A stretch of 64,000 bases of DNA from Eledone cirrhosa (lineage: Eukaryota), in the NCBI GenBank assembly GCA_964016885.1, contig OZ024755.1, positions 682,001 through 746,000 of the forward strand, written 5' to 3'. The translations under genes were made by a program, and so were the position numbers. The notes beneath the pieces are model-generated. The model saw nothing but the letters and a program-made list of their open reading frames with translations, was not told the DNA's origin and searched no databases. Positions within the stretch are counted from its first letter, which is position 1. Every line of letters starts with the position of its first letter. Shown here one piece after another: positions 4,823-57,047 of this stretch.

Positions 4823-5146
4823 TAATAATAATAATAATGAAATTATTGTGTACAGTGCTCAGGTGCACTAAACTCATCAAAGGTGCATGTATAGTACATA
4901 GAATAATTGTTTCTACATTTGGCACAAGGCCACCAATTATCCAGTACATTACTGGTACTTTATTTTATCGACCCCGTAAGGATGAAAGGCAAAGTCAACC
5001 TCGGCGAGATTTGAACTCAGATCGTAAAGGGACGTAACTATGCTGGAAAGCATGGCGTCCGACCCTCTACCGATACTGCCAATACTGCCAATATAGTATA
5101 GTACATAGAATAATATACAAATGTCAGGGAAGTGAACAACTTGATA
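4823..5146 (-). mobile_element. CR1 3'UTR fragment interrupted by a SINE
   Basis: Reverse complement of the CR1 3'UTR (tgtgtacagtgctcaggtgcac...) resumes after the SINE at 5096 (gtatagtacatagaataatatacaaatgtcagggaagtgaa). Confidence 0.85.
4902..5092 (-). mobile_element. tRNA-derived SINE family A, nested insertion with 19-bp TSD
   Basis: Reverse complement of the copy at 6066; TSD gtatagtacatagaataat at 4889-4907 and 5096-5114. Confidence 0.9.
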
Positions 5147-5802: not shown

Positions 5803-6065
5803 TATATATACTTATATACATACAGACATATACACACATACTTATATACATACAGGCATACTTACATACACATACTTATATACATACAGACATACTTGTA
5901 TACACATACTTATATACATACAGACATACTCACATACTCACACACACACAAACACACATACATACACACTGATATACTGACATATACACAATCGACTTTC
6001 CCCTCCCCCCAAAAAATTGCTGGCCTTGAACCTAAATCAGAAACCATTATTATTATTATTATTGA

Positions 6066-6270
6066 AAGGCGGTAGATTGGCAGTATCGGTAGAGGGTCGG
6101 ACGCCATGCTTTCAAGCATAGTTACGTCCCTTTACGATCTGAGTTCAAATCCCGCCGAGGTTGACTTTGCCTTTCATCCTTACGGGGTCGATAAAATAAA
6201 GTACCAGTAATGCACTGGGTAATTGCTGGCCTTGTGCCTAAAGTAGAAACAATTATTATTATTATTATTG
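6066..6270 (+). mobile_element. tRNA-derived SINE family A, full length
   Basis: A-box-like tggcagtatcgg, B-box gagttcaaatcc, core gactttgcctttcatccttacggggtcgataaaataaagtacc, tail gtagaaacaa(tta)n; at least 7 well-conserved copies in the window. Confidence 0.9.
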
Positions 6271-6440
6271 TTTTACTACTATCACTACAAATGTCATCAT
6301 CATCATCATCATCAAACCAACCTGCGTACTTCGTTGAGTGCTCCAATCTGCATACTGAGGTGTCGGTAAACAACCAACATATACTCAAAATTTATATTTA
6401 TATATATATATATATAAGTGATTACACAACAGTTAGTTCA

Positions 6441-6486
6441 CCATATCGAGAACAATTGTTTCACCTTAGAGGATCTTCAGCTCGGA
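6441..6486 (-). ncRNA. Minimal type-I hammerhead ribozyme (left-arm copy)
   Basis: Minus strand: ccgag CTGAAGA t-cct-cta-agg-t GAAA C-AATT-G TT ctcgat. Confidence 0.7.
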
Positions 6487-6534
6487 AGGACAACCATACA
6501 AACAAGGTTGTCCTTCCTGTTCCTATAACCATGT

Positions 6535-6584
6535 CCATTCCGAGCTGAGGATCCGCTAAGGTGAAACAATTGTTCTCGGTATGG
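6535..6584 (+). ncRNA. Minimal type-I hammerhead ribozyme
   Basis: Stem I ccattccgag / ctcggtatgg (9 of 10 pairs), core CTGAGGA (6545-6551), short helix II, GAAA (6563-6566), helix III C-AATT-G with palindromic loop, GUU triplet, predicted cut after 6574. Confidence 0.8.
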
Positions 6585-6607
6585 TGAACTAACTGTTGTG
6601 TAACCAC

Positions 6608-6670
<63 letters not shown>

Positions 6671-6769
6671 TAAATTTTGAGTATATGTTGGTTGTTTACC
6701 GACACCTCAGTATGCAGATTGGAGCACTTGACGAAGTACGCAGGTTGGTTTGTTTACTCCGGAGTAATT

Positions 6770-6931
6770 TAAAATAATTAAGTCAAATATGTAAAATTTG
6801 GCTTCGTTTATTACAAATTATAGATATAGTATATCTATAATTATATATATATATATATAATTATAGATATACTATATCTATAATTTGTAATAAACGAAGC
6901 CAAATTTTACATATTTGACTTAATTATTTTA
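6770..6931. repeat. Perfect ~160-bp palindrome centred on (TA)n
   Basis: taaaataattaagtcaaatatgtaaaatttggcttcg... mirrored by ...cgaagccaaattttacatatttgacttaattatttta. Confidence 0.9.
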
Positions 6932-10800: not shown

Positions 10801-13800
10801 TCATCATCATCATCATCATCATTTTACGTCCGCTTTTCCCTGCTTGCAAGGGTGGGACGGGTCTTATTCAGCACAGCATCTCTCCACTCATCACGGTCCT
10901 TCGTCATCTCCACCGTGAGCTTCAATGATCTGAGGTCTGTTCTCACCACCTCCGCCCATGTTTTTCATGGTCTACCTCTACCACGTCTTCCTTCAACTGG
11001 CATTTCCTGGCACTTCTTCACCCAGCGGTCATCTTCCATGTGCATCACATGTCCATACCACCTCAGTCTCCTCTCCCGTACACTACATTCTATCCCTCTC
11101 AGACACAGTTTCTCTCTCAACACATTTATGCTGGGTCGTTCACGCACATCCAACGGAGCATGCTTGCCTCATTTCTCTTCAGCCGTCGCATATCCTCTGC
11201 AGTTGCTGCCCATGTCTCACTACCATGCAGCATCGCGCTCCTCACACAGGCATCATACAACCGGCCTTTCGTACGCAGGGAGAAACCCTTCTTCGTCAAC
11301 AGAGGAAACAGCTCCCTAAACTTCTTCCAACCCGTCCTTATTCTAGATACTATGGCCTCGGAACACCCTCCTCCCATGCTAATCTGATCTCCTAGGTACC
11401 GGAAGCTATCCACCACTTCTATAGCGCCCTCCTGCATTTGAAAAATGTGTCTATTAATGCGACTTCTACTGTCTAATTTCCTTGTACATCTACTGCATAC
11501 ATATTTTTCCCTACCTGTTAGTTTGTCTGCTATCCCGCTACATCTCTTGTGTACCCAGGATCTGCATTGTGTGCATTTTATAGAATTTATGCCAGTTCCT
11601 TTTCTGCATATCGAACATGGCCATTTCTCTGACGGAATCAGAGTTTTGTGCTCTTTTCTACTCATCAACACTTTTGTCTCAGCTAGGTTCACTCTCAGTC
11701 CTCTTGCTTCCAAACTGCTGTTTCCATAGCCAGAATTTATTCTCTAGCTCCTCTACTGATTCTGCTATAAGAACCAGATCATCAGCATAGAGAAGTTCTC
11801 ATGGACAGCCAGTCTTAAACTCCTCTGTTATGGCTTGGAGGACTATAATGAACAAGAGCGGGCTGAGGACCGAACCTTGATGTACTCCTACTTGTATCTG
11901 GAATTCCTCACTAAACTCCATTCCTACCCTGACTTTACTGAAAGTACCTCTGTACAAAGTTTGCACTGTCCTCACAAGCCATTCCTCAACACCTAGCTTC
12001 CTTAGGGACCACCAGATGACAGATCGGGGTACCCTATCAAAGGCCTTCTCTAGGTCAACAAAGGCTAAGTATAGTGGCTTATTTTTCTCTAAAAACCTCT
12101 CTTGCAATTGTCTCACCAAGAAGAGGGCATCTGTTGTACTCTTCCCAGGCACAAAACCAAACTGCATCTCATCTAGTTTGACTCTTTCTCTAATTAGTTG
12201 TGCTAATATCCTTTCTGCCACTTTCATAACCTGATCCATCAGTTTTATACCCCTATAATTGCTCCTCTCCAAAGCATCCCCTTTAACTTTGTAGCAATTT
12301 ATGAGAATACTGCTGCACCAGTCTTTGGGTATGACCACCATATATAACCTAATTGATGATGCGTGTAACCAGTTTAGTGCCTACATCCCCTGATGCCTTC
12401 AGCATCTCAGCAACTATTCCCGATGGTCCAGCAGCCTTACCATTTTTCATTTCCCTAATCGCCTCTTGGACCCTATATTCATCAATCTCAATAGCTGGTC
12501 CCTCTGTCGGATCTACTAAGAGTAATTTATCTCTCTCCCATTCGTTCTCCACATTCATCAGTCACTCATAATGACATTTCAGGCCTCCTTTTTCTGATCA
12601 TTCGTGACACTAAGTACACCGGCATCATCCCGGACACATTTATCTCCAACAACATCCTGATTTGCATTAACACACTGCCTTGCAATGTGGAACACCGCAC
12701 GCCTCTGATCTTCCCGTCGCAGAACATTGGCAAACCTCCTACTCTCCGCCTCCCTGCGTGCTAAGTACACCTGACATCTAACTTCTCTCTTAGTGGCTGT
12801 ATATTCTTCCCTACTCCCACCCTTTTTCCAAGCCTTCCATGCGAGTCTTTTGTCTCTAATGGCCTTATCTACTGTGCTGTTCCACCACCAGGTCACTCTC
12901 TGTCTGGTTGGAGCTCTGCTCCAGCCACAGGTTTCATCAGTAGCCTGCAGCAAGTTGTCACGTAAGAAATTCCAGTTATTATCTATGTCATATGTCTCTA
13001 AATCGTCTTCTTTTTCGTCATATACATCTTGAAGGGCTTTCCTAAATTTGTATGTTAGTGAAAGGTCTTTTAGCTTCGAGACCTTTCTTCTCCACACCTT
13101 CCTGTATGTCTCATTCCATCTCTTGCTTACTGAGATATCACTAACGACTAACCTATGCTGTGGGGTACATTCTTCCCTGGGGTATGCCTTGGTATTAGAC
13201 ACTATCTGCCTGTCCCGTTGCCTAACTAGTAAGAAGTCAATCTGGCTTATATGCTCACCAGATTTGTAGGTTATTAGGTGATTGGCAGGTTTCTGGAAGT
13301 TTGTGTTGCAAATAGTCAATGTACCTGCATCACAAAATTCAAGAAGTCTCACTCCTTCTTCATTTCTTGAACCGTAACCGTGCCCACCATGTACCCCAGT
13401 GTAATCATCCTGGAGCTGTCCAACATGACCATTGAAGTCTCCTGCTAGCATAACAATGTCTCCGTCCTCTGTCATTGCGGTTGTTTGTAAAAGTTGCTCG
13501 TAAAAGCAGTCTTTCTCATCTTTGCCTAGGCCTGCTTGGAGAGCATAGACCGAGATGATTGTCAGTAGTCTCCTACCTACAACTAATCTAAGCTTAATTA
13601 TTCGATTACTAACTCGAACTACCTCTATTGTCTTATTGATCCATTTCTCAGCCAGGAAAATGCCTACTCCCTCTAACCCATCATCCTAACCTACCCAGAA
13701 TAGCTTATAGCTAAGACGTTTGCCTACGACTAGTCTCGCAGAGCCACCTCTCCATCTCACCTCTTGCACGCAGCACACATCCACATGCCTTCTCTCCAGC

Positions 13801-14310: not shown

Positions 14311-14508
14311 AATAATAATAATAATTGTTTCTACTTTTGGCACAAGGCCATCAATTACCCAGTACATTACTGGTACTTTATTTTATCAACCCCGTAAGGA
14401 TGAAAGGCAAAGTTAACCTCGGCGGGATTTGAACTCAGACCGTAAAGGGACGTAACTATGCTGGAAAGCATGGCGTCCGACTCTCTACCGATACTGCCAA
14501 TCCACACC
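14311..14508 (-). mobile_element. SINE family A
   Basis: Reverse complement of 6066-6270, flanked by (AAT)n on both sides. Confidence 0.9.
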
Positions 14509-19587: not shown

Positions 19588-19636
<49 letters not shown>

Positions 19637-19690
19637 CGGCGATGAATTAGTTTTGCGAGGTTTTTTATATGAAATCGTGTGTCGAAACAG

Positions 19691-19980
19691 ATATTGTTAT
19701 ATTTGGGGAGGGTCATATTTGCGTAATATTGCCAGAATTAATAACAGAACACACTCACTGTTTGGTTGGTTTTCGCTTCTCGCTGTCTTTTATATATATA
19801 TATCTGCGATCTAACTTACTCGGTCCTCAATGTTGCCATTGACTGACCGGCGGTCAAAAATAATACAGATACAATATAGACACAAACATATATATAGTTT
19901 ACATAAATCTTTCGTTGCACATCTGCAACATCGTCAGTGGTGTTATATTCATTGTTCCTCCTGTTGTGTTGTATGTCTAC

Positions 19981-20012
<32 letters not shown>

Positions 20013-20344
20013 GTTCAGTCTGTCTCAGACAGACTGAACAAAAAAAAAAATGGCGTAGACATACAACACAACAGGAGGAACAATGAATATAACACCACTG
20101 ACGATGTTGCAGATGTGCAACGAAAGATTTATGTAAACTATATATATGTTTGTGTCTATATTGTATCTGTATTATTTTTGACCGCCGGTCAGTCAATGGC
20201 AACATTGAGGACCGAGTAAGTTAGATCGCAGATATATATATATAAAAGACAGCGAGAAGCGAAAACCAACCAAACAGTGAGTGTGTTCTGTTATTAATTC
20301 TGGCAATATTACGCAAATATGACCCTCCCCAAATATAACAATAT
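19691..20344. mobile_element. ~650-bp near-perfect palindrome (fold-back element) between (TA)n tracts
   Basis: Arms identical except poly-T versus poly-A length; centre gtctgtct-c-agacagac at 20026; mirrored ORFs on both strands in the ORF track. Confidence 0.9.
20096..20133 (+). ncRNA. Hammerhead-like core (mirror copy on the minus strand at ~19901-19938)
   Basis: CTGACGA t-gttgca-gatg-tgcaac GAAA gatt TA; perfect 6-bp helix II, stem I only 2 bp. Confidence 0.55.
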
Positions 20345-20360
20345 ATATATATATATATAT

Positions 20361-20468
20361 GAACCAGTAAGACCCCGACAGCTGAGCTCAAGCCGTTTCG
20401 ACGGCTAATTCTGGACAAAATTAGCCGTCGAAACGGCTTGAGCTCAGCTGTCGGGGTCTTACTGGTTC
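20361..20468. repeat. Perfect 50-bp-arm hairpin containing the 3' half of a hammerhead
   Basis: gaaccagtaagaccccgacagctgagctcaagccgtttcgacggctaatt-ctggacaa-reverse complement; GAAA-cggct-tgagctc-agctg-TC. Confidence 0.85.
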
Positions 20469-20570
20469 CTATTACCCACTCTACTACCTCAAGTATTGAG
20501 TACTTTGGTGCGTTATGGTCCACCTGGTTCCTTACCACATTTCCTTCGTTATATATATATATATATATAT

Positions 20571-21490: not shown

Positions 21491-21554
<64 letters not shown>

Positions 21555-21892
21555 CGTTTCTGAATTTGTTTAGCAAGATTCTTTATCTTAAAACGTGTGT
21601 TGAAACCGATATTGTTATACTTTGGGAGGGTCATGTTGCCAATAAGAAACACACGCACCAGTTGCTTTCACTTCAATTTATTATAATAAATTTATAGATT
21701 TAGGAATTTATAAATTTCCGGTTGGTTGGTTGATTCCACAACCAGATGGTTGTTTATATATTGTCAAAGTTCTTTCGTCACACATTCTGTGACCTCTTCA
21801 GTGACTGATGATTCTTTTCTTTGTTTTTTTGTGCCTCTCCTTTGTTCTGTCCTACGCCAGCAGATGGCGTAGGACAGAACAAAGGAGAGGCA
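21555..21892. mobile_element. Diverged member of the 19636-20344 family, ending in a 28-bp-arm hairpin
   Basis: Shares gaaac.gatattgttata..tgggagggtcat and ctacgcca; hairpin tgcctctcctttgttctgtcctacgcca-gcaga-tggcgtaggacagaacaaaggagaggca (21832-21892); TA-flanked. Confidence 0.7.
21763..21805 (-). ncRNA. Minimal type-I hammerhead ribozyme motif
   Basis: Minus strand: gtca CTGAAGA g-gtcaca-gaatg-tgtgac GAAA gaac TT tgac; stem I 4 bp, helix II 6 bp. Confidence 0.65.
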
Positions 21893-21912
21893 TATATATA
21901 TATATATATGTG

Positions 21913-26181: not shown

Positions 26182-26365
26182 ATAATAATAATTGTTTCTA
26201 CTTTTTGGCACAAGGCCAGCAATTACCCAGTGCATTACTGGTACTTTATTCTATCGACCCCGTATGGATGAAAGGCAAAGTTAACCTCAGCAGGGTTTGA
26301 ACTCAGAACGTAAAGGGTGATAACTTTATGCTGCAAACCATGGTCTCTGAGCCTCTCCTGATACT
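26182..26365 (-). mobile_element. SINE family A
   Basis: Reverse complement of 6066-6270; directly abuts the family B copy. Confidence 0.85.
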
Positions 26366-28808: not shown

Positions 28809-29045
28809 ATATATATATATATGTAATATATATATATATGTAATATATATATATATGTAATATATATATATATATGTAATATATATATATATGTAATATA
28901 TATATATATGTAATATATATATATATGTAATATATATATATATATGTAATATATATATATATGTAATATATATATATATGTAATATATATATATGTAATA
29001 TATATATATATGTAATATATATATATGTAATATATATATCTATAT
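27955..29045. repeat. (CA)-rich then GTAA(TA)n compound microsatellites
   Basis: Direct reading. Confidence 0.9.
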
Positions 29046-29064
29046 TATATATATATATGTATAT

Positions 29065-29950
29065 AGTTCAGAGAACTTATACCACTATTAGCTGCTAAAG
29101 GGTTCTCCCTAAAAATGAAAGGCAGGTTGTACGATGCCTGCATACGAACAGCAATGCTGCATGGCAGTGAGACCTGGGCATTGTGTGCAGAGGATATACG
29201 CAGACTAGAGAGGAACGAAGCTTGCATGCTCCGCTGGATGTGTAACAGTAATATACGTGAACGGCAAAGCATAAACGAACTAAGGAAAAAATTAGAGATA
29301 AGAGGGATCAGATGTTGTTTACTCGAGAGAAGGCTACGTTGGTATGGACACGTGATGAGCATGAAAGTCGATAGCTGTATAACAAAGTGCAGGGCAATAA
29401 AGATAGACGGTAGTCACGGAATAGGCAGACCTAGAAAAACCTGGGACGAGCTGATAAACTCCGACATCACACACTTACACCTCTCCAAGACAATGTCACT
29501 GGACCGAGACCTTTGGCGGTACTCAGTAACAGAGAAGACCCGCCTTACCTAAATATATAGTAAAACCTACTCCAGCCAGTAGGCATCTCTAACAAAATAC
29601 ACCCCGTCCCACCACCACCACCCCCACCCCATCCACACCACCCCGTTCTATGTAAAGTTATGTTGGTGCCGCGCCATCCAGGCCGAAACAAATGAGATCG
29701 TGTAGGTGTCACGACAAAGAAACACAGAGTCCACGCTGTAATGTGGCCGTGTAGGCAACACGGTAAAAACCTCCCAGACCCACACTGTAAATGTGGTTGG
29801 TGTTAGGAAGGGCATCCAACTGTAGAAAACCTGCCAGACAGTCCTATGCGAGCAAGACAATCACTCTTGCCTCAAGTGGGACTACCCCTGTCCAAACCCA
29901 TGCAAGCGTGGAACACGGACGTTAAACGTTGATGATGATGATGATGATGA
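29065..29950 (+). mobile_element. RTE family B 3' fragment (ORF end, 3'UTR, (GAT)n tail)
   Basis: KGRLYDACIRTAMLHGSETW...RRLRWYGHV...GRPRKTW; tail ggacgttaaacgttgatgatg. Confidence 0.92.
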
Positions 29951-30155: not shown

Positions 30156-30712
30156 TATCCAATGCATGGCTCTGCCCCAGTTTTCTCTTTATATTAATGA
30201 GTTTTTTTCCCTTATTTCCTTATTAACATCCTTTATAGTTCTAGTGCCTTTCAGTATTTCCAGATTTTCTCTGTCTCATCTTCAGTATGAAGTGGTTATT
30301 AAAGCCACTTGTTATATTTGTATCATTGTATGTAAAAGAGCTAAGAATGATGGAATGCAGCTGTCTTTTAGATGATATTATTATCACAAGATTGGACATG
30401 TTTGACCGTTAATGTCAGGCTTCTGTCTGTAATAAATTATTCCACTCTGTTAATGTCTGCCTCTCCTTGCTAGAATATTCTATCTTTCTCTGTGTTATGT
30501 TGTGTGTTGGATTTTGTCATTAATACGACTTCCATGACCAAAACAACTTATTAAGGTAGCAATAACAAGTGTTACTAATAATTATTCCAGCCTGAAAATA
30601 ACATTTTGGAGAGATCTATCTGTCTGTCTGTCTATCTATCTATATGTCTGTCTATCTATATGTCTAGCTATATGTCTGTCTATCTCTATACCTACCTCTC
30701 TCTCTCTCTTAT

Positions 30713-31343
30713 TATATGGATGTGTAATATACACCAACAGCAAAGCATAAACAAATTGAGAGAGAGACTGAGCATAAGAGGAATCAAATGCAGTGTGCAG
30801 GAGAGGAGGTTTTGTTGGTATGGACATGTGATGCGTATGAAGGATGACAGCGGCATAAAAAGGTGCAGAGAACTAGAAGTCGATGGAAACCGGGGAGTGG
30901 GGAGACCCAAGAAGACCTGGGATGAGGTGATAAAAGCTGACCTTGCCCAATTGCACCTCTCAAAGGCGATGACACACGACCGTGACCTCTGGCGTCACGC
31001 AGTGATACAGAAGACCCGACTTCCCATGGGTACAAACCGAAGCTGAAGCATATAGACAATATGCCCCCACACCCTTCCATTGCAAAGTGAACGTAGAGGC
31101 GCCACGGCTAAAAAGCACCCAGCCCACTCTGTAAAGTGGACGTGTAGGCGCCACGGCAAAAAAGCACCCAGTACTCACTGTAAATGAGGTTGGTGTTAGG
31201 AAGGGCATCCAGCTGTAGAAATCAAGCCAGAATCAGTTCCTTTATGAGCAAGACAAGGTCAGCCGACCAGACACTGCCCACAACAGGACAACCCATCTAA
31301 CCCATGCTATTGTGGAAGAATGGACGTAAAACGGTGATGATGA
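30713..31343 (+). mobile_element. RTE 3' fragment (third subfamily)
   Basis: WMCNI...WYGHVMRM...GRPKKTW; 3'UTR with duplicated aaaagcacccag module; tail ggacgtaaaacggtgatgatg. Confidence 0.88.
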
Positions 31344-31621: not shown

Positions 31622-32597
31622 ATCATCATCATCGTTTAACGTCCATATTCCACGCTTGGATGGGTTTGGACGGGAGTTTTCCCACTTGAGGCAAGAGTGG
31701 TTGTCTTGCTCGCATAGGACTGTCTGGCGGGTTTTCTACAGCTGGATGCCCTTCCTAACACCAACCACATTTACAGTGTGGGGCTGGGAGGTTTTTACCA
31801 TGTTACCTACACGGCCACATTACAGCGTGGACTGTGTGTTTTTTTTGGCGTGACACCTACACGACCTCATTTGTTTCGGCCTGGATGTTGTGGCACCAAC
31901 ATAACTTTACATTGAAAGGGGTGGTGTGGATGGGGTGGGGGTGGTGGGACGGGGGTGTATTTTGTTAGAGGTGCCTACTGACTGTAGTAGATTTTACTTT
32001 GTATTTAGGTAAGGCGGGTCTTCTCTATTACTGAGTACCGCCAAAGATCTCGGTCCAGTGACATTGTCTTGGAGAGGTGTAAGTGTGTGAGGTCGGAATT
32101 TATCAAGTCGTCCCAGGTTTTTCTGGGTCTGCCTACTCCGTGGCTACCGTCTATCTTTATTGCCCTGCACTTTTTTTTTCATGCGCATCACATGACCATA
32201 TCAACGTAGCCTTCTCTCGAGTAAACAACATCTGATCCCTCTTATTTCTAATTTTTTCCTTAGTTCGTTAATGCTTTGCCGTTCACGTATATTACTATTA
32301 CACATCCAGCGGAGCATGCAAGCTTGGTTCCTCTCTAGTCTGCGTATATCCTCTGCACACAATGCCCAGGTCTCACTGCCATGCAACATTGCTGTTCGTA
32401 TGCAGGCATCATACAGCCTGCCTTTCATTTTTAGGGAGAACCCTTTAGCGGCTAATAGTGGTATAAGCTCTCTGAACTTTTTCCATCCAGTTCTGACTCT
32501 AGCTACTGTACTTTCAGAGCACCCTCCCCCACTGCTGATTTTGTCACCCATGTAACGGAAACTGTCCACTATTTCTATAGAACCCTCTGCGCAATTG
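31622..32597 (-). mobile_element. RTE family B 3' fragment, inverted relative to the 29065 copy
   Basis: DSFRYMGDKISSGGGCSE...MLHGSETW...RRLR; 3'UTR is the reverse complement of 29553-29950. Confidence 0.92.
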
Positions 32598-33011
32598 AAA
32601 GAGCTAGCTATTATATATTGTATATATAGTATATATTATATATATATATATATATTGTATATATTGTGTTTAGTGTCTATTATATATATATTGTCCACAC
32701 CTAACTTTAAATTTCATATCTTTTCACAATCACTATTAAGGGTCTGGCTAATGTATAATTATTTGCATATGTGTATACAAATATATATATATATATGTGT
32801 GTGTGTGTGTTTGTGTGTATATATATATATATACACACGCACACACATATATGTGTGTGCGTGTGTATATATATATATACACACACTCACACACACATAC
32901 ATATGTATGTGTGATTTATTTTGTATAGAAATTACTCCTGCCGGACTAGAACTATTTAATTTATTTGAAATCACCAGGAAAGTATTTGCTAACAGGCTGC
33001 TTTCTATATAT

Positions 33012-36000
33012 GCTAAAAATGTTGTTAACAGGGTGTGTTATGCCTGTTAAAAATATTGTTAACAGGGTGTGTTATGCATGTTAAAAATATTGTTAACAGG
33101 GTGTGTTATGCATGTTAAAAATGTTGTTAACAGGGTGTGTTATGCCTGTTAAAAATATTGTTAACAGGGTGTGTTATGCATGTTAAAAATATTGTTAACA
33201 GGGTGTGTTATGCATGTTAAAAATGTTGTTAACAGGGTGTGTTATGCCTGTTAAAAATATTGTTAACAGGGTGTGTTATGCATGTTAAAAATGTTGTTAA
33301 CAGGGTGTGTTATGCCTGTTAAAAATGTTGTTAACAGGGTGTGTTATGCCTGTTAAAAATATTGTTAACAGGGTGTGTTATGCATGTTAAAAATGTTGTT
33401 AACAGGGTGTGTTATGCATGTTAAAAATGTTGTTAACAGGGTGTGTTATGCCTGTTAAAAATATTGTTAACAGGGTGTGTTATGCATGTTAAAAATATTG
33501 TTAACAGGGTGTGTTATGCATGTTAAAAATGTTGTTAACAGGGTGTGTTATGCCTGTTAAAAATGTTGTTAACAGGGTGTGTTATGCATGTTAAAAATAT
33601 TGTTAACAGGGTGTGTTATGCATGTTAAAAATGTTGTTAACAGGGTGTGTTATGCATGTTAAAAATGTTGTTAACAGGGTGTGTTATGCCTGTTAAAAAT
33701 ATTGTTAACAGGGTGTGTTATGCATGTTAAAAATGTTGTTAACAGGGTGTGTTATGCCTGTTAAAAATGTTGTTAACAGGGTGTGTTATGCATGTTAAAA
33801 ATGTTGTTAACAGGGTGTGTTATGCCTGTTAAAAATGTTGTTAACAGGGTGTGTTATGCATGTTAAAAATGTTGTTAACAGGGTGTGTTATGCCTGTTAA
33901 AAATATTGTTAACAGGGTGTGTTATGCATGTTAAAAATGTTGTTAACAGGGTGTGTTATGCCTGTTAAAAATGTTGTTAACAGGGTGTGTTATGCATGTT
34001 AAAAATGTTGTTAACAGGGTGTGTTATGCCTGTTAAAAATGTTGTTAACAGGGTGTGTTATGCATGTTAAAAATGTTGTTAACAGGGTGTGTTATGCCTG
34101 TTAAAAATATTGTTAACAGGGTGTGTTATGCATGTTAAAAATGTTGTTAACAGGGTGTGTTATGCCTGTTAAAAATGTTGTTAACAGGGTGTGTTATGCA
34201 TGTTAAAAATGTTGTTAACAGGGTGTGTTATGCATGTTAAAAATGTTGTTAACAGGGTGTGTTATGCCTGTTAAAAATGTTGTTAACAGGGTGTGTTATG
34301 CATGTTAAAAATGTTGTTAACAGGGTGTGTTATGCCTGTTAAAAATGTTGTTAACAGGGTGTGTTATGCATGTTAAAAATGTTGTTAACAGGGTGTGTTA
34401 TGCCTGTTAAAAATATTGTTAACAGGGTGTGTTATGCATGTTAAAAATGTTGTTAACAGGGTGTGTTATGCCTGTTAAAAATGTTGTTAACAGGGTGTGT
34501 TATGCATGTTAAAAATGTTGTTAACAGGGTGTGTTATGCATGTTAAAAATGTTGTTAACAGGGTGTGTTATGCCTGTTAAAAATATTGTTAACAGGGTGT
34601 GTTATGCATGTTAAAAATGTTGTTAACAGGGTGTGTTATGCCTGTTAAAAATGTTGTTAACAGGGTGTGTTATGCATGTTAAAAATGTTGTTAACAGGGT
34701 GTGTTATGCATGTTAAAAATGTTGTTAACAGGGTGTGTTATGCCTGTTAAAAATATTGTTAACAGGGTGTGTTATGCATGTTAAAAATGTTGTTAACAGG
34801 GTGTGTTATGCCTGTTAAAAATGTTGTTAACAGGGTGTGTTATGCATGTTAAAAATGTTGTTAACAGGGTGTGTTATGCATGTTAAAAATGTTGTTAACA
34901 GGGTGTGTTATGCATGTTAAAAATGTTGTTAACAGGGTGTGTTATGCCTGTTAAAAATATTGTTAACAGGGTGTGTTATGCCTGTTAAAAATGTTGTTAA
35001 CAGGGTGTGTTATGCATGTTAAAAATGTTGTTAACAGGGTGTGTTATGCATGTTAAAAATGTTGTTAACAGGGTGTGTTATGCATGTTAAAAATGTTGTT
35101 AACAGGGTGTGTTATGCCTGTTAAAAATGTTGTTAACAGGGTGTGTTATGCATGTTAAAAATGTTGTTAACAGGGTGTGTTATGCCTGTTAAAAATGTTG
35201 TTAACAGGGTGTGTTATGCCTGTTAAAAATGTTGTTAACAGGGTGTGTTATGCCTGTTAAAAATATTGTTAACAGGGTGTGTTATGCATGTTAAAAATAT
35301 TGTTAACAGGGTGTGTTATGCCTGTTAAAAATATTGTTAACAGGGTGTGTTATGCATGTTAAAAATATTGTTAACAGGGTGTGTTATGCCTGTTAAAAAT
35401 ATTGTTAACAGGGTGTGTTATGCCTGTTAAAAATATTGTTAACAGGGTGTGTTATGCCTGTTAAAAATATTGTTAACAGGGTGTGTTATGCATGTTAAAA
35501 ATATTGTTAACAGGGTGTGTTATGCCTGTTAAAAATATTGTTAACAGGGTGTGTTATGCATGTTAAAAATATTGTTAACAGGGTGTGTTATGCCTGTTAA
35601 AAATATTGTTAACAGGGTGTGTTATGCCTGTTAAAAATATTGTTAACAGGGTGTGTTATGCATGTTAAAAATATTGTTAACAGGGTGTGTTATGCCTGTT
35701 AAAAATATTGTTAACAGGGTGTGTTATGCATGTTAAAAATATTGTTAACAGGGTGTGTTATGCCTGTTAAAAATATTGTTAACAGGGTGTGTTATGCATG
35801 TTAAAAATATTGTTAACAGGGTGTGTTATGCCTGTTAAAAATATTGTTAACAGGGTGTGTTATGCCTGTTAAAAATATTGTTAACAGGGTGTGTTATGCA
35901 TGTTAAAAATATTGTTAACAGGGTGTGTTATGCCTGTTAAAAATATTGTTAACAGGGTGTGTTATGCATGTTAAAAATATTGTTAACAGGGTGTGTTATG

Positions 36001-36152
36001 CCTGTTAAAAATATTGTTAACAGGGTGTGTTATGCATGTTAAAAATATTGTTAACAGGGTGTGTTATGCCTGTTAAAAATATTGTTAACAGGGTGTGTTA
36101 TGCCTGTTAAAAATATTGTTAACAGGGTGTGTTATGCCTGTTAAAAATATTG
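33012..36152. repeat. 34-bp tandem satellite, about 92 copies
   Basis: tgttaaaaat(a/g)ttgttaacagggtgtgttatgc(a/c); period 34 (aacaggg at 33061 and 33095). Confidence 0.97.
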
Positions 36153-36490
36153 CTAGAAAGTCGGGAGGGGTTGTATGTTAAAAATATTGCTAAGAGGATG
36201 GGTTATATATGTTAAAAGTGTTGCTAAGAGGATGGGTTATATATGTTAAAAGTGTTGCTAAGAGGATGGGTTATATATGTTAAAAATATTGCTAAGAGGA
36301 TGGGTTATATCTGTTAAAAGTGTTGCTAACATGATGCGTCTTTTTTTTTTTTGTAAGAAATATTGCTAACAGGGTGGTTTGTAGATGTTAAAAACATTAT
36401 GAACAGGGGGGTTTTTATGTGTAAAAATATTGCTAACAAGATGGTTTTTATATAATTCATGTATTGACTGTTGCTAACAGGGTAGTTTGT
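36153..36490. repeat. Degenerate relatives of the 34-bp unit
   Basis: gttaaaagtgttgctaagaggatgggttatatat and more diverged ttgctaacaggg units. Confidence 0.8.
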
Positions 36491-37029
36491 ATTCTACAAA
36501 TATCTAGTTTGTCTTTCTTACTGGTTGCTCATTTTTCTTTATCCTTTTTTAAAATTCGTTTTATTAATTTATTTATTTAAGCTGATAAGTAAAAGTAAAG
36601 CCAAAGAAAGATTAAAATAAATCAGAATTCAAGATAAAGAAGCAAGAAATAATAATAATGGTAATAATAATAATAATCAGCTACAAGAAAGTTCCAAATT
36701 TTTTCCTTTTTCAAAGAACAGTTAAGTAATTGTCTTCTACCATATTTCTGCTGACAATTCACCATTATTTTCCTTGGCAATCTGTTTATTGATCGGCAAA
36801 TAGTTTTGTTGCTCATCTGTATTTATTTGCGTGTATTGTGTAATCAAAGTCAAAGAATGTTCTGATAGAGAAAAACCTTGATTATTAGTTTTAGAAATAA
36901 AAAAAAAAAAAGACCGAAAAAAAAAACGATAAAAAAAGCCGTTAATCACTGTCAGAAAATGTTCAGTTAAATATGTTGTTAATATTTTATTTATTCTCAG
37001 TGAATTGGCAGTAATTGGTAGAGCACTGG

Positions 37030-38841: not shown

Positions 38842-39035
38842 TAATAATTGTTTCTACTTTTGGCACAAGGCCAGCAATTATCCCAATGTATTACTGGTAC
38901 TTTATTTTATCGACCCTGAAAGGATGAAAGGCAAAGTTAACCTCGGCGGGATTTGAACTCAGATCGTAAAGGGAGGTAACTCTATGCTTCAAAGCATGGC
39001 GTCCGACCTTCCACCAATACTGCCGATCCACCGCC
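38842..39035 (-). mobile_element. SINE family A with 16-bp TSD
   Basis: TSD cttcagcagtaataat at 38833-38848 and 39036-39051. Confidence 0.9.
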
Positions 39036-39259
39036 CTTCAGCAGTAATAATGGTATAGAATTTCATTGACAAGATCCCAGACCTCACTCACTTACTAAGT
39101 CGGGATGGAATTTGTGAAATTGGACCAAGGAAGTGATGTTTTCATTGGTCTTTCCATTGCTGATACTATCTACAGGTCACATCTTATCATCATCATCATC
39201 ATCATCATCATCATTTAACATCCATTTTGCATGCTAGCATAGGTTAGACGAGTGTGTCT

Positions 39260-43394: not shown

Positions 43395-44205
43395 AGTCCT
43401 ACAATTTATGACATAGCTTTACAATTGACAACACAGTCCTACAATTTAAGACATAGCTTTACAATTTAAGACACAGTCCTACAATTTAAGACATAGCTTT
43501 ACAATTTAAGACACAGTCCTACAATTTAAGACACAGTCCTACAATTTAAGACATAGCTTTACAATTTAAGACACAGTCCTACAATTTAAGACACAGTCCT
43601 ACAATTTAAGACATAGCTTTACAATTTAAGACACAGTCCTACAATTTAAGACATAGCTTTACAATTTAAGACACAGTCCTACAATTTAAGACACAGTCCT
43701 ACAATTTAAGACATAGCTTTACAATTTAAGACACAGTCCTACAATTTAAGACACAGTCCTACAATTTAAGACATAGCTTTACAATTTAAGACACAGTCCT
43801 ACAATTTAAGACACAGTCCTACAATTTAAGACATAGCTTTACAATTTAAGACACAGTCCTACAATTTAAGACACAGTCCTACAATTTAAGACATAGCTTT
43901 ACAATTTAAGACACAGTCCTACAATTTAAGACACAGTCCTACAATTTAAGACATAGCTTTACAATTTAAGACACAGTCCTACAATTTAAGACACAGTCCT
44001 ACAATTTAAGACATAGCTTTACAATTTAAGACACAGTCCTACAATTTAAGACACAGTCCTACAATTTAAGACATAGCTTTACAATTTAAGACACAGTCCT
44101 ACAATTTAAGACATAGCTTTACAATTTAAGACACAGTCCTACAATTTAAGACACAGTCCTACAATTTAAGACATAGCTTTACAATTTAAGACAGTCCTAC
44201 AATTT
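43395..44205. repeat. 20-bp satellite with two variants in a higher-order pattern, about 40 units
   Basis: A=acaatttaagacacagtcct, B=acaatttaagacatagcttt; mostly AAB trimers. Confidence 0.97.
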
Positions 44206-48898: not shown

Positions 48899-49169
48899 AT
48901 ATAATCAATATAATATAATATAGCAGTAAAGATTTTTATGATAAATTTAAACTTAAATTTTTATACATGCAAAAAAATATAACGGGGAAAAATATGATGG
49001 TATTGTCTGCAAGAACCAAACCATATATGTATGTGTATGTATGTGTATGTACATATATATATATGTGTGTATGTATATATATATATATATATATATATGC
49101 GTGTGTGTGTGTGTTGTGTGTGTGTGTGTGTGAGTGAGAGAGAGAAAATGATAGAATGTATATGTATAT

Positions 49170-49283
49170 ATAATTGTTTCTACTTTTGGCACAAGGCCAG
49201 CAATTACCCAGTGTATTACTGGTACTCTATTTTATCGACCCCGTAAGGATGAAAGGCAAAGTTAACCTCGGCGGGATTTGAAC
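49170..49283 (-). mobile_element. SINE family A, 5'-truncated at the B box
   Basis: aattgtttctacttttggcacaaggcc...cggcgggatttgaact. Confidence 0.88.
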
Positions 49284-50915
49284 TTGTGTGTAAATGTGTG
49301 TGAGAGAGAGAGTGCATGTGTGTGTGAGAGAAAGTGTTTATGTATGTCTGTGAGAGAGATTGTGTGTGTATGTGTATCTGTTTCTTCTTATACATGAATA
49401 AACTATATAAACACAGCAACTAAACTTTATAGTATTCAGCAATGAAAATACATATACATACATACACATACTTACACATACATATACATCTACATACATA
49501 AAAGCAGAAGAAAAGAGAGAGAAAAAATAATGTTTGTGAGATCTAACATATATTTATCTAACATTTCCACTTCTCAATTTAATAGTTATACTGAGACCTT
49601 TAAAACTATAACGGAATAACAAAGGGTTAAAATTCACCATATGAACCCCTAACACTTCCTATAAAAATTAATGGTATGTTTTTTATTTATGTTTCAAACA
49701 TGTTTTTTGTCCTTATTTTTGATCAAAGACTACTAATAGCTTGTCTACCCGATTCCTGAATGTAGACAGAAATCCTGTCACCTTTTTTTTTTGCTGCTGT
49801 CTTCTTTTTTTTGCTGCTGTCTTTTTTTTTTCTTCAGTATTTTCCTTCCTGAGGAATATATATATACATATACATACACATGTATACATACATATATATA
49901 TATATATACACACACATATATATACATATGTCGGAAATACTTAACACACACACACACAGACATATATATTTATATATATATATATAGTTATATTATATTT
50001 TATCTATGTAATTATCTTCTGACAAAAACAATATAAGAAATATCTATAAAAATATAAAAAGTTCTAAATGAAAGTGATAAATGTTAAGATTAGTCTAAAT
50101 TGATTTTTGTTTTTTTTTACCCCAGCAAAGTAACAAAGTAACTAACCCTTGTACATATTTTGTGAACTGACTATAAAGACTGGAGGATAGGATGGAGATG
50201 GTGTATGTTGATCTTTGCATATACATGCATATATATATATACACACCTATATTTGTATATTTGTGTGTGTGTATGTATATATATATATATATATACATAT
50301 ATATACACACCTATATTTGTATATTTGTGTGTGTGTTTGTATATATATATATATATACACACACATATATACACACCTATAGTTGTATTTTTTGTGTGTG
50401 TATATATATATGTGTGTGTGTTTGATTTCCATTGAAGCCAACAATAAAAATAAGTTTAAGAATATATTTTCAATATGGTTTTTGAATCCCATTTATATAT
50501 AAAGAACTTTAAAATGAAAAATAAAAATAAATAACAAAAATAAAGATAACAAAACAAACAAACAAATAAACAAACAAATAAATAAACAAACAAACAAATA
50601 AATAAACATATAAATAAATAAACATATAAATAAATGAATAATAAATGTTGTTATCTTTGGAACAAACGATGATCTTTATGGTTGGTTAAATCTAGAAAAC
50701 AAACAGCAGAGGAAAAAAAATGGTCGGTGAGAGAAGGAAAAGATAGAACTATGGTAAATAATAGATAAAACGGAGTTGATAAAAAGACTGAAACAGAATT
50801 TTAAATATGTGATAATACATTAGATTTGTGTGGTTTATGTTGGTATTGCGGCATATGTGTGTATATATGTGTATATATGTGTGGGTGTATGGGTATGTAT
50901 GTATGTATGTATGTA

Positions 50916-53605: not shown

Positions 53606-54204
53606 AACAACACTACTGTTACCACTTTTACCACCACAACTACTATCACTACTCCAACAACATTAACACCACCACTTCCAACACCACCACTATCACCACA
53701 ACAACCACCTACACCACCATTACCACCGCCACTTCCAACACCACCACTATTACCACCACAACAACCACCTACACCACCACTACACCACCACTACCACCAC
53801 CACCACCACTACCACCCATACAACTTTCCTCTCCCTCCATATAGTAATTATAATTTAAGTTTAGTTTGATTATTCCGGATTAAAGATCTTAAAACATCCT
53901 TGCCAGTTATTAAATCTCAGTACATCAGACATTAAACCAATATTCCTATGTGATTGGTGATTGATCTGTATTAGTTTACACGGTACATTGTTGATTAACT
54001 TGATCTTGTAACTTTTTATTGTTTCATCAAAACACCAGCTTTTCTCAACTTTTCAACTTCTCAAATTTTCAAAGAAATTTTTCCCTGAAGTAATTCACTT
54101 ATTATGATTCTTAAAAATATCTATTGATCTTAGCCATTTAAACCAATATAAACTCGATCACCTAATCTTTGCATTCTTTTTCCTTATTTCTACCTATATT
54201 TTTA

Positions 54205-54394
54205 TAATAATAATTGTTTCTACTTTAGGCACAAGGCCAGCAATTACCCAGTGCATTACTGGTACTTTATTTTATCGACCCCGTAAGGATGAAAGGCAAA
54301 GTCAACCTCGGCGGGATTTGAACTCAGATCGTAAAGGGACGTAACTATGCTAGAAAGCATGGCGTCCGACACTCTACCGATACTGCCAATCCAC
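54205..54394 (-). mobile_element. SINE family A inserted at a CR1 tail
   Basis: Flanked both sides by tatttttataataataat. Confidence 0.9.
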
Positions 54395-54402
54395 CTATTT
54401 TT

Positions 54403-56519: not shown

Positions 56520-57047
56520 AACTATCAAAGTTTACTGAGAAACTCTGCAGGAACCCTCCATCATAGAGAGCTATCAAAGTTTACTGAGAAACTCTGCAGG
56601 AACCCTCCATCATAGAGAACTATCAAAGTTTACTGAGAAACTCTGCAGGAACCCTCCATCATAGAGAGCTATCAAAGTTTACTGAGAAACTCTGCAGGAA
56701 CCCTCCATCATAGAGAACTATCAAACTTTACTGAGAAACTCTGCAGGAACCCTCCATCATAGAGAACTATCAAACTTTACTGAGAAACTCTGCAGGAACC
56801 CTCCATCATAGAGAACTATCAAACTTTACTGAGAAACTCTGCAGGAACCCTCCATCATAGAGAACTATCAAACTTTACTGAGAAACTCTGCAGGAACCCT
56901 CCATCATAGAGAGCTATCAAACTTTACTGAGAAACTCTGCAGGAACCCTCCATCATAGAGAACTATCAAACTTTACTGAGAAACTCTGCAGGAACCCTCC
57001 ATCATAGAGAGCTATCAAACTTTACCGAGAAACTCTGCAGGAACCCC
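56520..57047. repeat. 49-bp minisatellite, about 11 copies
   Basis: (a/g)ctatcaaa(g/c)tttactgagaaactctgcaggaaccctccatcatagaga; period 49 (56522, 56571). Confidence 0.97.

What the first reader, a model, noticed from the sequence alone, without database searches (positions are those of the whole stretch)
6313..6931. Double fold-back element with back-to-back hammerhead ribozymes
Seen: a 440-bp inverted repeat whose two arms each carry a complete minimal type-I hammerhead, pointing outward on opposite strands around a central hairpin (ggaaggacaacc...ggttgtccttcc). A second 160-bp palindrome follows at the other end. The arms differ at several sites, so this is unlikely to be a read artefact. 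Established: minimal hammerheads with a 1-bp helix III and palindromic tetraloop are typical of Penelope-like retroelements and are thought to cleave as dimers (Cervera & De la Pena 2014). Inference: a non-coding, ribozyme-processed, snap-back-replicating element; transcription from either direction meets a ribozyme and yields long dsRNA.
Basis: partly seen in the sequence, partly recalled or inferred. Interest (0 to 1): 0.8.

Follow-up and report, generated by a model that had tools for sequence, protein, structure and literature searches.

The report
Head-to-head Penelope-type retroelement stubs
The two mirror-image hammerhead motifs are real, but they are the ends of two truncated copies of a very abundant repeat that likely belongs to the Penelope-like retrotransposons and was likely laid down head to head in a TA microsatellite, a layout already described, in which read-through RNA is predicted to lock both ribozymes off.

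Summary
Observation largely confirmed. 6313-6752 is an imperfect inverted repeat (6 substitutions, a 24-nt deletion, (TA)8 against (TA)28), 6770-6931 a perfect palindrome, and each inner arm has a type-I minimal hammerhead motif. Public runs show that the hammerhead piece (6506-6610) is a very abundant repeat. It ends in microsatellites, continues upstream of the hairpin, and is joined head to head at 11 other listed points, only 4 of which keep both ribozymes. The hairpin loop is family sequence, not a dedicated structure. Either read-through transcript makes the antisense arm first, and the ribozyme fold has probability 0.000. Three other fold-back stubs of different sequence lie in the window. 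Opposite-strand pairs of minimal hammerheads and head-to-head Penelope ends are in print (PMC4209133, PMC3846280, PMC8557442). No RT/endonuclease partner could be tested. Two points stay open: a family-wide U·U closure of a 2-3 bp helix II, and the unidentified 175-bp neighbour whose two fold-backs end 17 nt apart. Verdict: new member of a known kind, low interest.

The parts
6313..6398 (-). B1': inverted copy of neighbour segment B1; joined on the left to a (CAT)n tract
   Evidence: 86 nt, 2 differences from 6667-6752
6399..6415 (.). (TA)8 tract at the 3' end of the left family copy
6416..6504 (-). Family A, left copy: 5'-truncated 3' end of the repeat family. Lacks 24 nt bounded by TTCC, and reaches 9 nt further upstream than the right copy (these 9 nt form the hairpin loop)
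6447..6484 (-). Minimal type-I hammerhead motif (C3 6480, H17 6451; helix I 4 bp, helix II 3 bp plus U·U, helix III palindrome); 5' strand of the distal helix I deleted
6484..6517 (.). Central hairpin = head-to-head junction. Loop 6496-6505, read on the - strand, matches the family's upstream sequence at 6 of 9 positions, and all 3 differences are C>T at CpG
6506..6610 (+). Family A, right copy: 5'-truncated 3' end of a very abundant repeat family
   Evidence: 2695 contigs laid in X1, 11,481 reads in X21; an X4 contig matches 6558-6612 with no difference
6519..6589 (+). Type-I hammerhead motif (C3 6545, H17 6574) with predicted extended helix I (6528-33/6580-85 and 6519-22/6586-89) around a variable bulge 6534-39
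   Evidence: family variants
6611..6666 (.). (TA)28 tract at the 3' end of the right family copy
6667..6752 (.). B1: unidentified neighbour segment; no other copy in the window outside the finding
6753..6769 (.). 17-nt linker holding a perfect 14-bp palindrome (6754-6767); the only part of the central unit that neither outer arm covers
6770..6931 (.). B2 palindrome: 81 of 81 pairs, centred on (TA)9 at 6842-6859, each arm with a 12-bp internal hairpin (6817-6841 in the left arm)

Best explanation
The hammerhead-bearing core (6416-6610) is two 5'-truncated copies of the 3' end of a very abundant repeat family, joined head to head with their 3' ends on (TA)n, and it is likely an ordinary insertion by-product of a Penelope-like retrotransposon rather than an element that replicates in this form. 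Inferred mechanism, from the PLE literature: a GIY-YIG endonuclease nicks AT-rich DNA; the RT copies the element RNA from its 3' end and stops early; a second copy is made in the opposite direction (priming on the other strand, or a template switch) and the two truncated 5' ends are joined. The junction is therefore new at every locus. Here neither arm is a plain copy of the other (the left has 9 extra upstream nt, the right has 24 nt the left lacks), which favours two separate RNA-templated copies or a later deletion. The hammerheads are passengers: the motif is conserved across the family, but at this locus any read-through RNA is predicted to pair sense with antisense arm and give dsRNA, not cleavage. 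The outer arms (B1, B2) are an unidentified neighbour, not the usual continuation of the family, and likely another TA-associated stub that was either folded back already or carried along in the same event.
For:: summed depth in X1 rises from 39,440 (6510-21) to 1,078,927 (6582-93) while the listed single contigs have depth 8-15; in X5 it rises from 76 to about 4,100. Loose ends behind 6609/6611 are (TA)n, (CT)n and mixed sequence, not B1. 2,927 reads (X21) and 16 contigs (X1) continue upstream of 6506 with one consensus. 11 of 12 listed joints are other head-to-head junctions, and 4 of these 11 start upstream of helix I on both arms; no listed variant at 12 core positions, 8 of 38 helix positions and 10 of 25 other positions vary; both variants in the distal 6-bp helix keep the pair; the loop matches family sequence on the - strand (chance 5.5e-5) and at 1 of 10 positions on the + strand. 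P(helix I/II/III) = 0.000 in both read-through transcripts and in the whole element; three other fold-back stubs of different sequence beside (TA)n at 19636-20343 (with a 55-nt one-sided tail), 20361-20535 and 21553-21893. Papers: PMC4209133 reports dual min-HHRs about 100-700 bp apart on opposite strands; PMC3846280 reports head-to-head inverted pLTRs with palindromes at the junction; PMC8557442 describes an inverted 5'-truncated copy at the 5' end and microsatellite bias; PMC11167929 shows a PLE protein cutting and extending both strands at AT-rich DNA, with HHR cleavage not needed in vitro.
Against: No RT or GIY-YIG ORF was linked to the family: no genome is held, and the collection scans gave nothing useful, so PLE membership rests on anatomy. 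Helix II departs from the published consensus: U·U closure and 2-3 bp, where the alignment rows seen close with G-C, A-U or G·U and have 3 bp or more. No 30-40-bp tail separates the two A copies, and no target-site duplication was found at the ends. The reading does not explain why B1 is also mirrored, or why the two outer arms stop 17 nt apart. The depth gradient is from unitigs and RAD reads, and the tool warns it is no copy number. The exact junction is not independently bridged, and the tool skipped 6270-6425.
Confidence: 0.78

Rival explanations
1. The whole 6313-6931 stretch is one insertion: the opened form of a doubly hairpin-closed (dumbbell) intermediate made from a chimeric RNA A-(TA)n-B, cut at the internal 14-bp palindrome and joined to the target.
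For: The two outer arms together mirror all of the central unit except 17 nt, which hold a perfect 14-bp palindrome. Arm divergence in B1 (2 of 86) and B2 (0 of 81) is compatible with one age. PMC8557442 attributes PLE tails to endonuclease resolution of an intermediate, and PMC3846280 notes that 3' self-priming gives tail-to-tail repeats.
Against: Family A is normally not followed by B. The two A arms carry different family alleles at N7, and the left arm has several private changes. A polymerase stalling at the hairpins, or separate events in two (TA)n tracts, would also give close ends. One locus only; B copy number was not measured.
Confidence: 0.12
2. One reading: a self-contained non-coding element that is processed by its two ribozymes and replicates by snap-back.
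For: Both cores are intact and conserved in the family; the central hairpin is stable.
Against: The junction is not fixed and 7 of 11 other listed junctions break a ribozyme; the family extends upstream and ends in microsatellites. The motifs cannot dimerise in cis and are predicted to be locked in both directions. No second copy of the unit in the window.
Confidence: 0.03
3. Assembly or read artefact (fold-back chimera).
For: The B2 arms are identical, and so are the arms at 19695-20340 apart from a homopolymer. No listed piece bridges the junction.
Against: The A and B1 arms differ by substitutions, a microhomology-bounded deletion and a TG/CA pair. The loop is templated family sequence absent from the other arm. 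Head-to-head junctions of this family occur in independent short-read data, including raw reads of another individual.
Confidence: 0.04
4. The palindromes arose at DNA level (cruciform breaks at (TA)n, hairpin capping, fork template switching) after a single A copy had inserted.
For: The B2 palindrome is centred on (TA)n, and B1 flanking sequence is mirrored together with A.
Against: A DNA fold-back of the right arm cannot supply the 9 upstream family nt in the left orientation. Many other family loci have head-to-head junctions inside the element. The process may still account for B1/B2 alone.
Confidence: 0.03

Closest known systems
Minimal hammerheads (min-HHR) in pseudo-LTRs of metazoan Penelope-like elements (Cervera & De la Pena 2014, PMC4209133)
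   Same: Type-I topology, CUGANGA/GAAA/UH core, short helix I, helix III with palindrome, mostly dispersed truncated copies; pairs 100-700 bp apart on opposite strands are explicitly reported.
   Different: Helix II is 2-3 bp with a family-wide U·U (or C·U) closure instead of G10.1-C11.1; helix III has a 4-nt palindromic loop as in canonical metazoan forms; the pair here is only 65 nt apart (C3 to C3); no linked ORF shown.
Insertion unit of endonuclease-bearing PLEs with an inverted pLTR and tail (Arkhipova et al. 2013, PMC3846280; Craig et al. 2021, PMC8557442, Fig. 2 legend)
   Same: 5'-truncated copies, head-to-head inversion with a hairpin at the junction, microsatellite target, no clear TSD.
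   Different: No tail between the two A copies; 86 bp of non-family neighbour is mirrored as well; a second, TA-centred palindrome follows.
PAc (Poseidon of Anolis carolinensis; Frangieh et al. 2024, PMC11167929)
   Same: Provides the inferred chemistry: AT-rich nicking and extension on both strands, internal RT start, HHR protein-assisted and dispensable in vitro.
   Different: PAc is an autonomous element with its ORF starting inside the HHR; nothing of the kind is shown here.
Non-LTR retrozymes (definition in bioRxiv 10.64898/2026.07.22.740005)
   Same: Non-coding, type-I HHR with palindromic helix III, related to PLE ends.
   Different: Retrozymes are head-to-tail tandem units; this family is seen as dispersed truncated copies and head-to-head pairs ending in microsatellites.

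Membership tests
Penelope-like element (EN+) | ORF with telomerase-like RT and GIY-YIG endonuclease | not testable with these tools
   No genome held; no ORF of 120 aa or more near the locus; family seen only about 30 nt further upstream; collection scans empty or chance.
Penelope-like element (EN+) | Type-I hammerhead core with palindromic helix III near the 3' end | tested here: met
   core invariant at the 4% level.
Penelope-like element (EN+) | 5' truncation with a fixed 3' end | tested here: met
   Depth rises towards the 3' end in X1 and X5, 3' ends at 6609-6611 (unitig depth is a rough measure).
Penelope-like element (EN+) | Inverted 5'-truncated copy adjacent head to head, variable junction | tested here: met
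   This locus plus 11 of 12 listed joints.
Penelope-like element (EN+) | Insertion bias to AT-rich or microsatellite DNA | tested here: met
   Both copies end on (TA)n; loose ends are microsatellites.
Penelope-like element (EN+) | Optional 30-40-bp tail on one end; TSD where visible | tested here: inconclusive
   A copies end within 1 nt of each other; no TSD at the ends. Both features are optional or hidden in microsatellites per PMC8557442.
Penelope-like element (EN+) | Direct pLTRs in partial tandem | not testable with these tools
   Needs long copies; none available.
min-HHR consensus (Cervera 2014) | G10.1-C11.1 closing pair, helix II of 3-8 bp | tested here: not met
   U6552 and U6562 show no listed variant in four runs; 2-3 bp stem.
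min-HHR consensus (Cervera 2014) | Self-cleavage as a dimer | not testable with these tools
   Computed only: swapped dimer -18.6 kcal/mol against cofold minimum -29.8; monomer active fold -3.7 against -12.1, and -10.0 against -14.1 with the distal helix.
Non-LTR retrozyme | Two or more head-to-tail tandem units with HHR | tested here: not met
   No direct repeat of A in the window; no go-back joint listed and 3' loose ends are microsatellites.
MITE / foldback DNA transposon | Fixed terminal inverted repeats and constant internal structure, TSD | tested here: not met
   Junction varies between loci; no TSD. Tested for family A only; B not tested.
Naiad PLE (for segment B) | Sequence identity to curated Naiad consensus | tested here: inconclusive
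   Five short exact B motifs were sought in the PMC8557442 supplement: two had no hit, three had one hit each in dissimilar context; exact matching is weak.

The most novel reading that the evidence does not exclude
The 619-nt stretch is a fossil of the PLE integration intermediate: a dumbbell closed by the A hairpin at one end and a (TA)n hairpin at the other, opened at the internal 14-bp palindrome. It carries a hammerhead variant whose 2-3 bp, U·U-closed helix II is held by a very abundant family and may need the distal helix I or the element's protein to fold. If so, arm ends at other loci should cluster at 6752 and 6770, which would make the open question of how PLE inverted structures and tails form directly testable.
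Probability: 0.12. Interest if true: 0.55.

Novelty: new member of a known kind. Interest (0 to 1): 0.2.

Why it matters
As read here it matters little: it adds one more family to a known class and shows that back-to-back hammerheads are a by-product of how these elements insert. Two side values remain. Such stubs are a ready source of near-perfect dsRNA (PMC5625713 links genome-wide dsRNA potential to hyper-editing, high in octopus, and names lizard Penelope as heavily edited). The family-wide U·U, 2-3 bp helix II is also a small natural hammerhead variant that Rfam and descriptors demanding G10.1-C11.1 would miss.

Tried and rejected
Own-genome search: no genome held. Exact 21-nt motif in metagenome and viral contigs: 0 and 0. 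Degenerate hammerhead pattern: 1 metagenome locus, L001, without helix I or III and judged chance; 0 in prokaryote genomes. Rfam: no hammerhead; the miRNA-type hits are generic hairpin matches far below gathering scores. B as coding tail of a PLE ORF: the 36-residue frame gave 1 hit at E 2.4e-4 with 0 matched stretches, a TPR-repeat protein, rejected. B against the rest of the masked window: nothing better than E 0.068. TSD search: only a 5-mer away from the ends. Earlier scan notes by place and by sequence: nothing. Simple copy-back of the right arm as origin of the left arm: rejected because the loop is family sequence in the left orientation. A paper search for twin priming in Penelope elements listed 2 papers that looked off topic from the listing; no claim is made that it is unpublished. 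Supplement file 1 of PMC4209133 could not be searched and bioRxiv supplements are closed; either could hold further helix II variants.

Full report
1. Observation. The window is AT-rich animal DNA full of microsatellites, SINE-like repeats and LINE fragments. From recalled repeat sequences I take it to be an octopus-type genome; no call names it. The inverted repeat 6313-6752 and the palindrome 6770-6931 are present. The arms of the first differ at 6 of 183 aligned columns, by a 24-nt stretch bounded by TTCC that is missing on the left, and by (TA)8 against C(TA)28; the second is perfect over 81 pairs. Both hammerhead motifs pass a relaxed type-I descriptor, with cleavage positions 6574 (+) and 6451 (-) and a palindromic helix III. 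The descriptor gives 3 hits in the window against 0.055 expected, and 0 of 200 shuffles gave a hit with palindromic helix III. Rfam does not see them. Helix II is weak: 2 bp (+) or 3 bp (-), closed by U·U.

2. What it is made of. I laid four public runs on 6270-6612 at 80% likeness (4 of the 23 runs listed; the tool skipped 6270-6425). The piece 6506-6610 (family A) is very abundant: 2,695 contigs in X1 and 11,481 of 12.5 million RAD reads in X21 (another sample of the same species label), with 5 contigs also in a second organism (X4). Summed depth rises from 39,440 at 6510-21 to 1,078,927 at 6582-93 in X1, where the listed single contigs have depth 8-15. The tool warns this is no copy number; I use it only as 'very many' and as a 5'-to-3' gradient. 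Loose ends behind 6609/6611 are (TA)n, (CT)n and mixed sequence, not B1. Loose ends before 6506 (2,927 reads, agreement 0.96; 16 contigs) give one upstream continuation, so the right arm is a truncated copy. Of 12 listed joints, 11 are head-to-head junctions at other positions and 1 is an internal deletion; by my reading of the coordinates, 4 of the 11 begin upstream of helix I on both arms. The window's own junction is not bridged by any of the 21 pieces shown (2,839 hidden), so it is neither confirmed nor denied.

3. The central hairpin. Read on the minus strand, the loop matches the family's upstream sequence at 6 of 9 positions, and all three differences are C>T at CpG (chance 5.5e-5); on the plus strand it matches 1 of 10. 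The hairpin is thus two truncated copies abutting: the left reaches 9 nt further upstream, the right keeps 24 nt that the left lacks. Neither is a plain copy of the other. This also speaks against a read chimera, as does the TG/CA pair in B1.

4. The ribozyme. Among variants listed at 4% or more on the right arm (one row not shown), none falls on 12 core positions including U6552 and U6562, 8 of 38 helix positions vary, and 10 of 25 other positions vary; the core N7 position also varies. Of the 8 helix variants 5 break the pair and 3 keep it; the two in the distal 6-bp stem both keep it. A distal extension of helix I (6528-33/6580-85, 6519-22/6586-89) lowers the active fold from -3.7 to -10.0 kcal/mol against a minimum of -14.1, and the left copy has lost its 5' strand. 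So the motif looks conserved in the family, with a helix II outside the published consensus (CUGANGAH G...C GAAA; rows seen). At this locus the motifs point outward, so a transcript entering from either side makes the antisense arm first. Predicted helix I, II and III probabilities are 0.000 for both read-through RNAs and for the whole element, against 0.23 (plus) and 0.01 (minus) for helix I when an arm is folded alone from the junction. No transcript has two sense copies, so the dimer route needs two molecules; the swapped dimer (-18.6) is less stable than the cofold minimum (-29.8).

5. Surroundings. The same layout, with different sequence, recurs beside (TA)n at 19636-20343 (arms identical but for a homopolymer, hammerhead cores on both arms with broken helix I, 55-nt one-sided tail), 20361-20535 and 21553-21893 (hammerhead at 21801-21767, minus). 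Segment B (6667-6841) has no other copy in the window, no credible protein match and no match to curated Naiad consensus by short motifs. Its copy number was not measured. Its two mirrored parts leave out only 6753-6769, which holds a 14-bp palindrome, so the whole stretch folds as two long hairpins and one small one.

6. Mechanism. Shown: abundance, a common 3' end on microsatellites, upstream continuation, variable head-to-head junctions, loop identity, core conservation. Computed: ribozyme locking. Inferred from the literature: nicking of AT-rich DNA, target-primed reverse transcription from the 3' end, a second opposite copy, and end joining. How B1 came to be mirrored is not resolved: a ready-made palindromic target, a chimeric RNA template and copying into the flank all remain possible.

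7. Literature seen. PMC4209133: parts 1-2 of 4 of the text and part 2 of 3 of supplement 2; it reports opposite-strand dual min-HHRs 100-700 bp apart, a conserved G10.1-C11.1 pair and low dimer activity. PMC3846280: passages and Discussion. PMC8557442: passages, section 15 and supplement searches. PMC11167929: parts 1-2 of 4. bioRxiv 10.64898/2026.07.22.740005: part 1 of 5. PMC5625713 and PMC6962438: passages. Seven paper searches were answered; none of the listings pointed to a description of this family or of a U·U-closed PLE hammerhead, but subscription journals and Repbase/Dfam are not covered, so I make no claim of absence. Earlier AI notes from this scan reached the same class of answer for other genomes; they are not independent evidence.

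8. Verdict. Real sequence, known architecture, a probably undescribed family member. Interest 0.2.

Noticed in passing
window 19636-20343: A second head-to-head fold-back of different sequence between (TA)n tracts, with hammerhead cores on both arms (C3 20098 + and 19937 -, helix I broken) and a 55-nt tail on the left arm only; arms identical apart from a poly(A) length.
   Followed up: partly
window 20361-20535 and 21553-21893: Two more TA-bounded stubs with a long arm and a short fold-back arm. The second carries a min-HHR with a G-C-closed helix II (21801-21767, minus) and shares end sequence with 19643-19719.
   Followed up: partly
window 6496-6505: All 3 CpGs of the unpaired loop are C>T on one strand, while CpGs in the paired A arms are mostly intact; faster decay in loops, arm homogenisation or a subfamily difference.
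   Followed up: no
window 6559, 6566, 6569: A>G variants are more frequent in run X5 (4.3%, 4.2%, 6.9% of depth) than in X1 (0.04%, 0.12%, 0.01%); X21 shows 1.6%, 0.4%, 5.5%. X5 is not on record as RNA and is another sample, so this is only a lead for A-to-I editing.
   Followed up: no
window 6724-6742: B1 on the + strand has a hammerhead-like first half-core (UUGACGAA G) with 15 nt identical to a sea-urchin min-HHR row in the PMC4209133 supplement, but no GAAA follows and the mirrored arm breaks it; may be chance.
   Followed up: partly
window 6579-6594: A 16-nt block just after the ribozyme shows no listed variant on the right arm and holds a branch-point-like CTAAC about 16 nt before the family's 3' end (motif recalled).
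   Followed up: no
window 6064-6251, 4902-5072, 14326-14505, 26182-26365, 38842-39039, 49156-49284, 54204-54395: Copies of one SINE-like family; an octopus SINE by recollection only.
   Followed up: no
window 11126-13685 (minus), 29045-29552, 30582-31046, 32201-32635: Broken LINE ORF2 pieces with APE-endonuclease- and RT-like motifs, RTE-like by recollection.
   Followed up: no
window 32986-36491, 43395-44205, 56528-57046: Minisatellite arrays with periods of about 68 (or 34), 20 and 98 nt.
   Followed up: no
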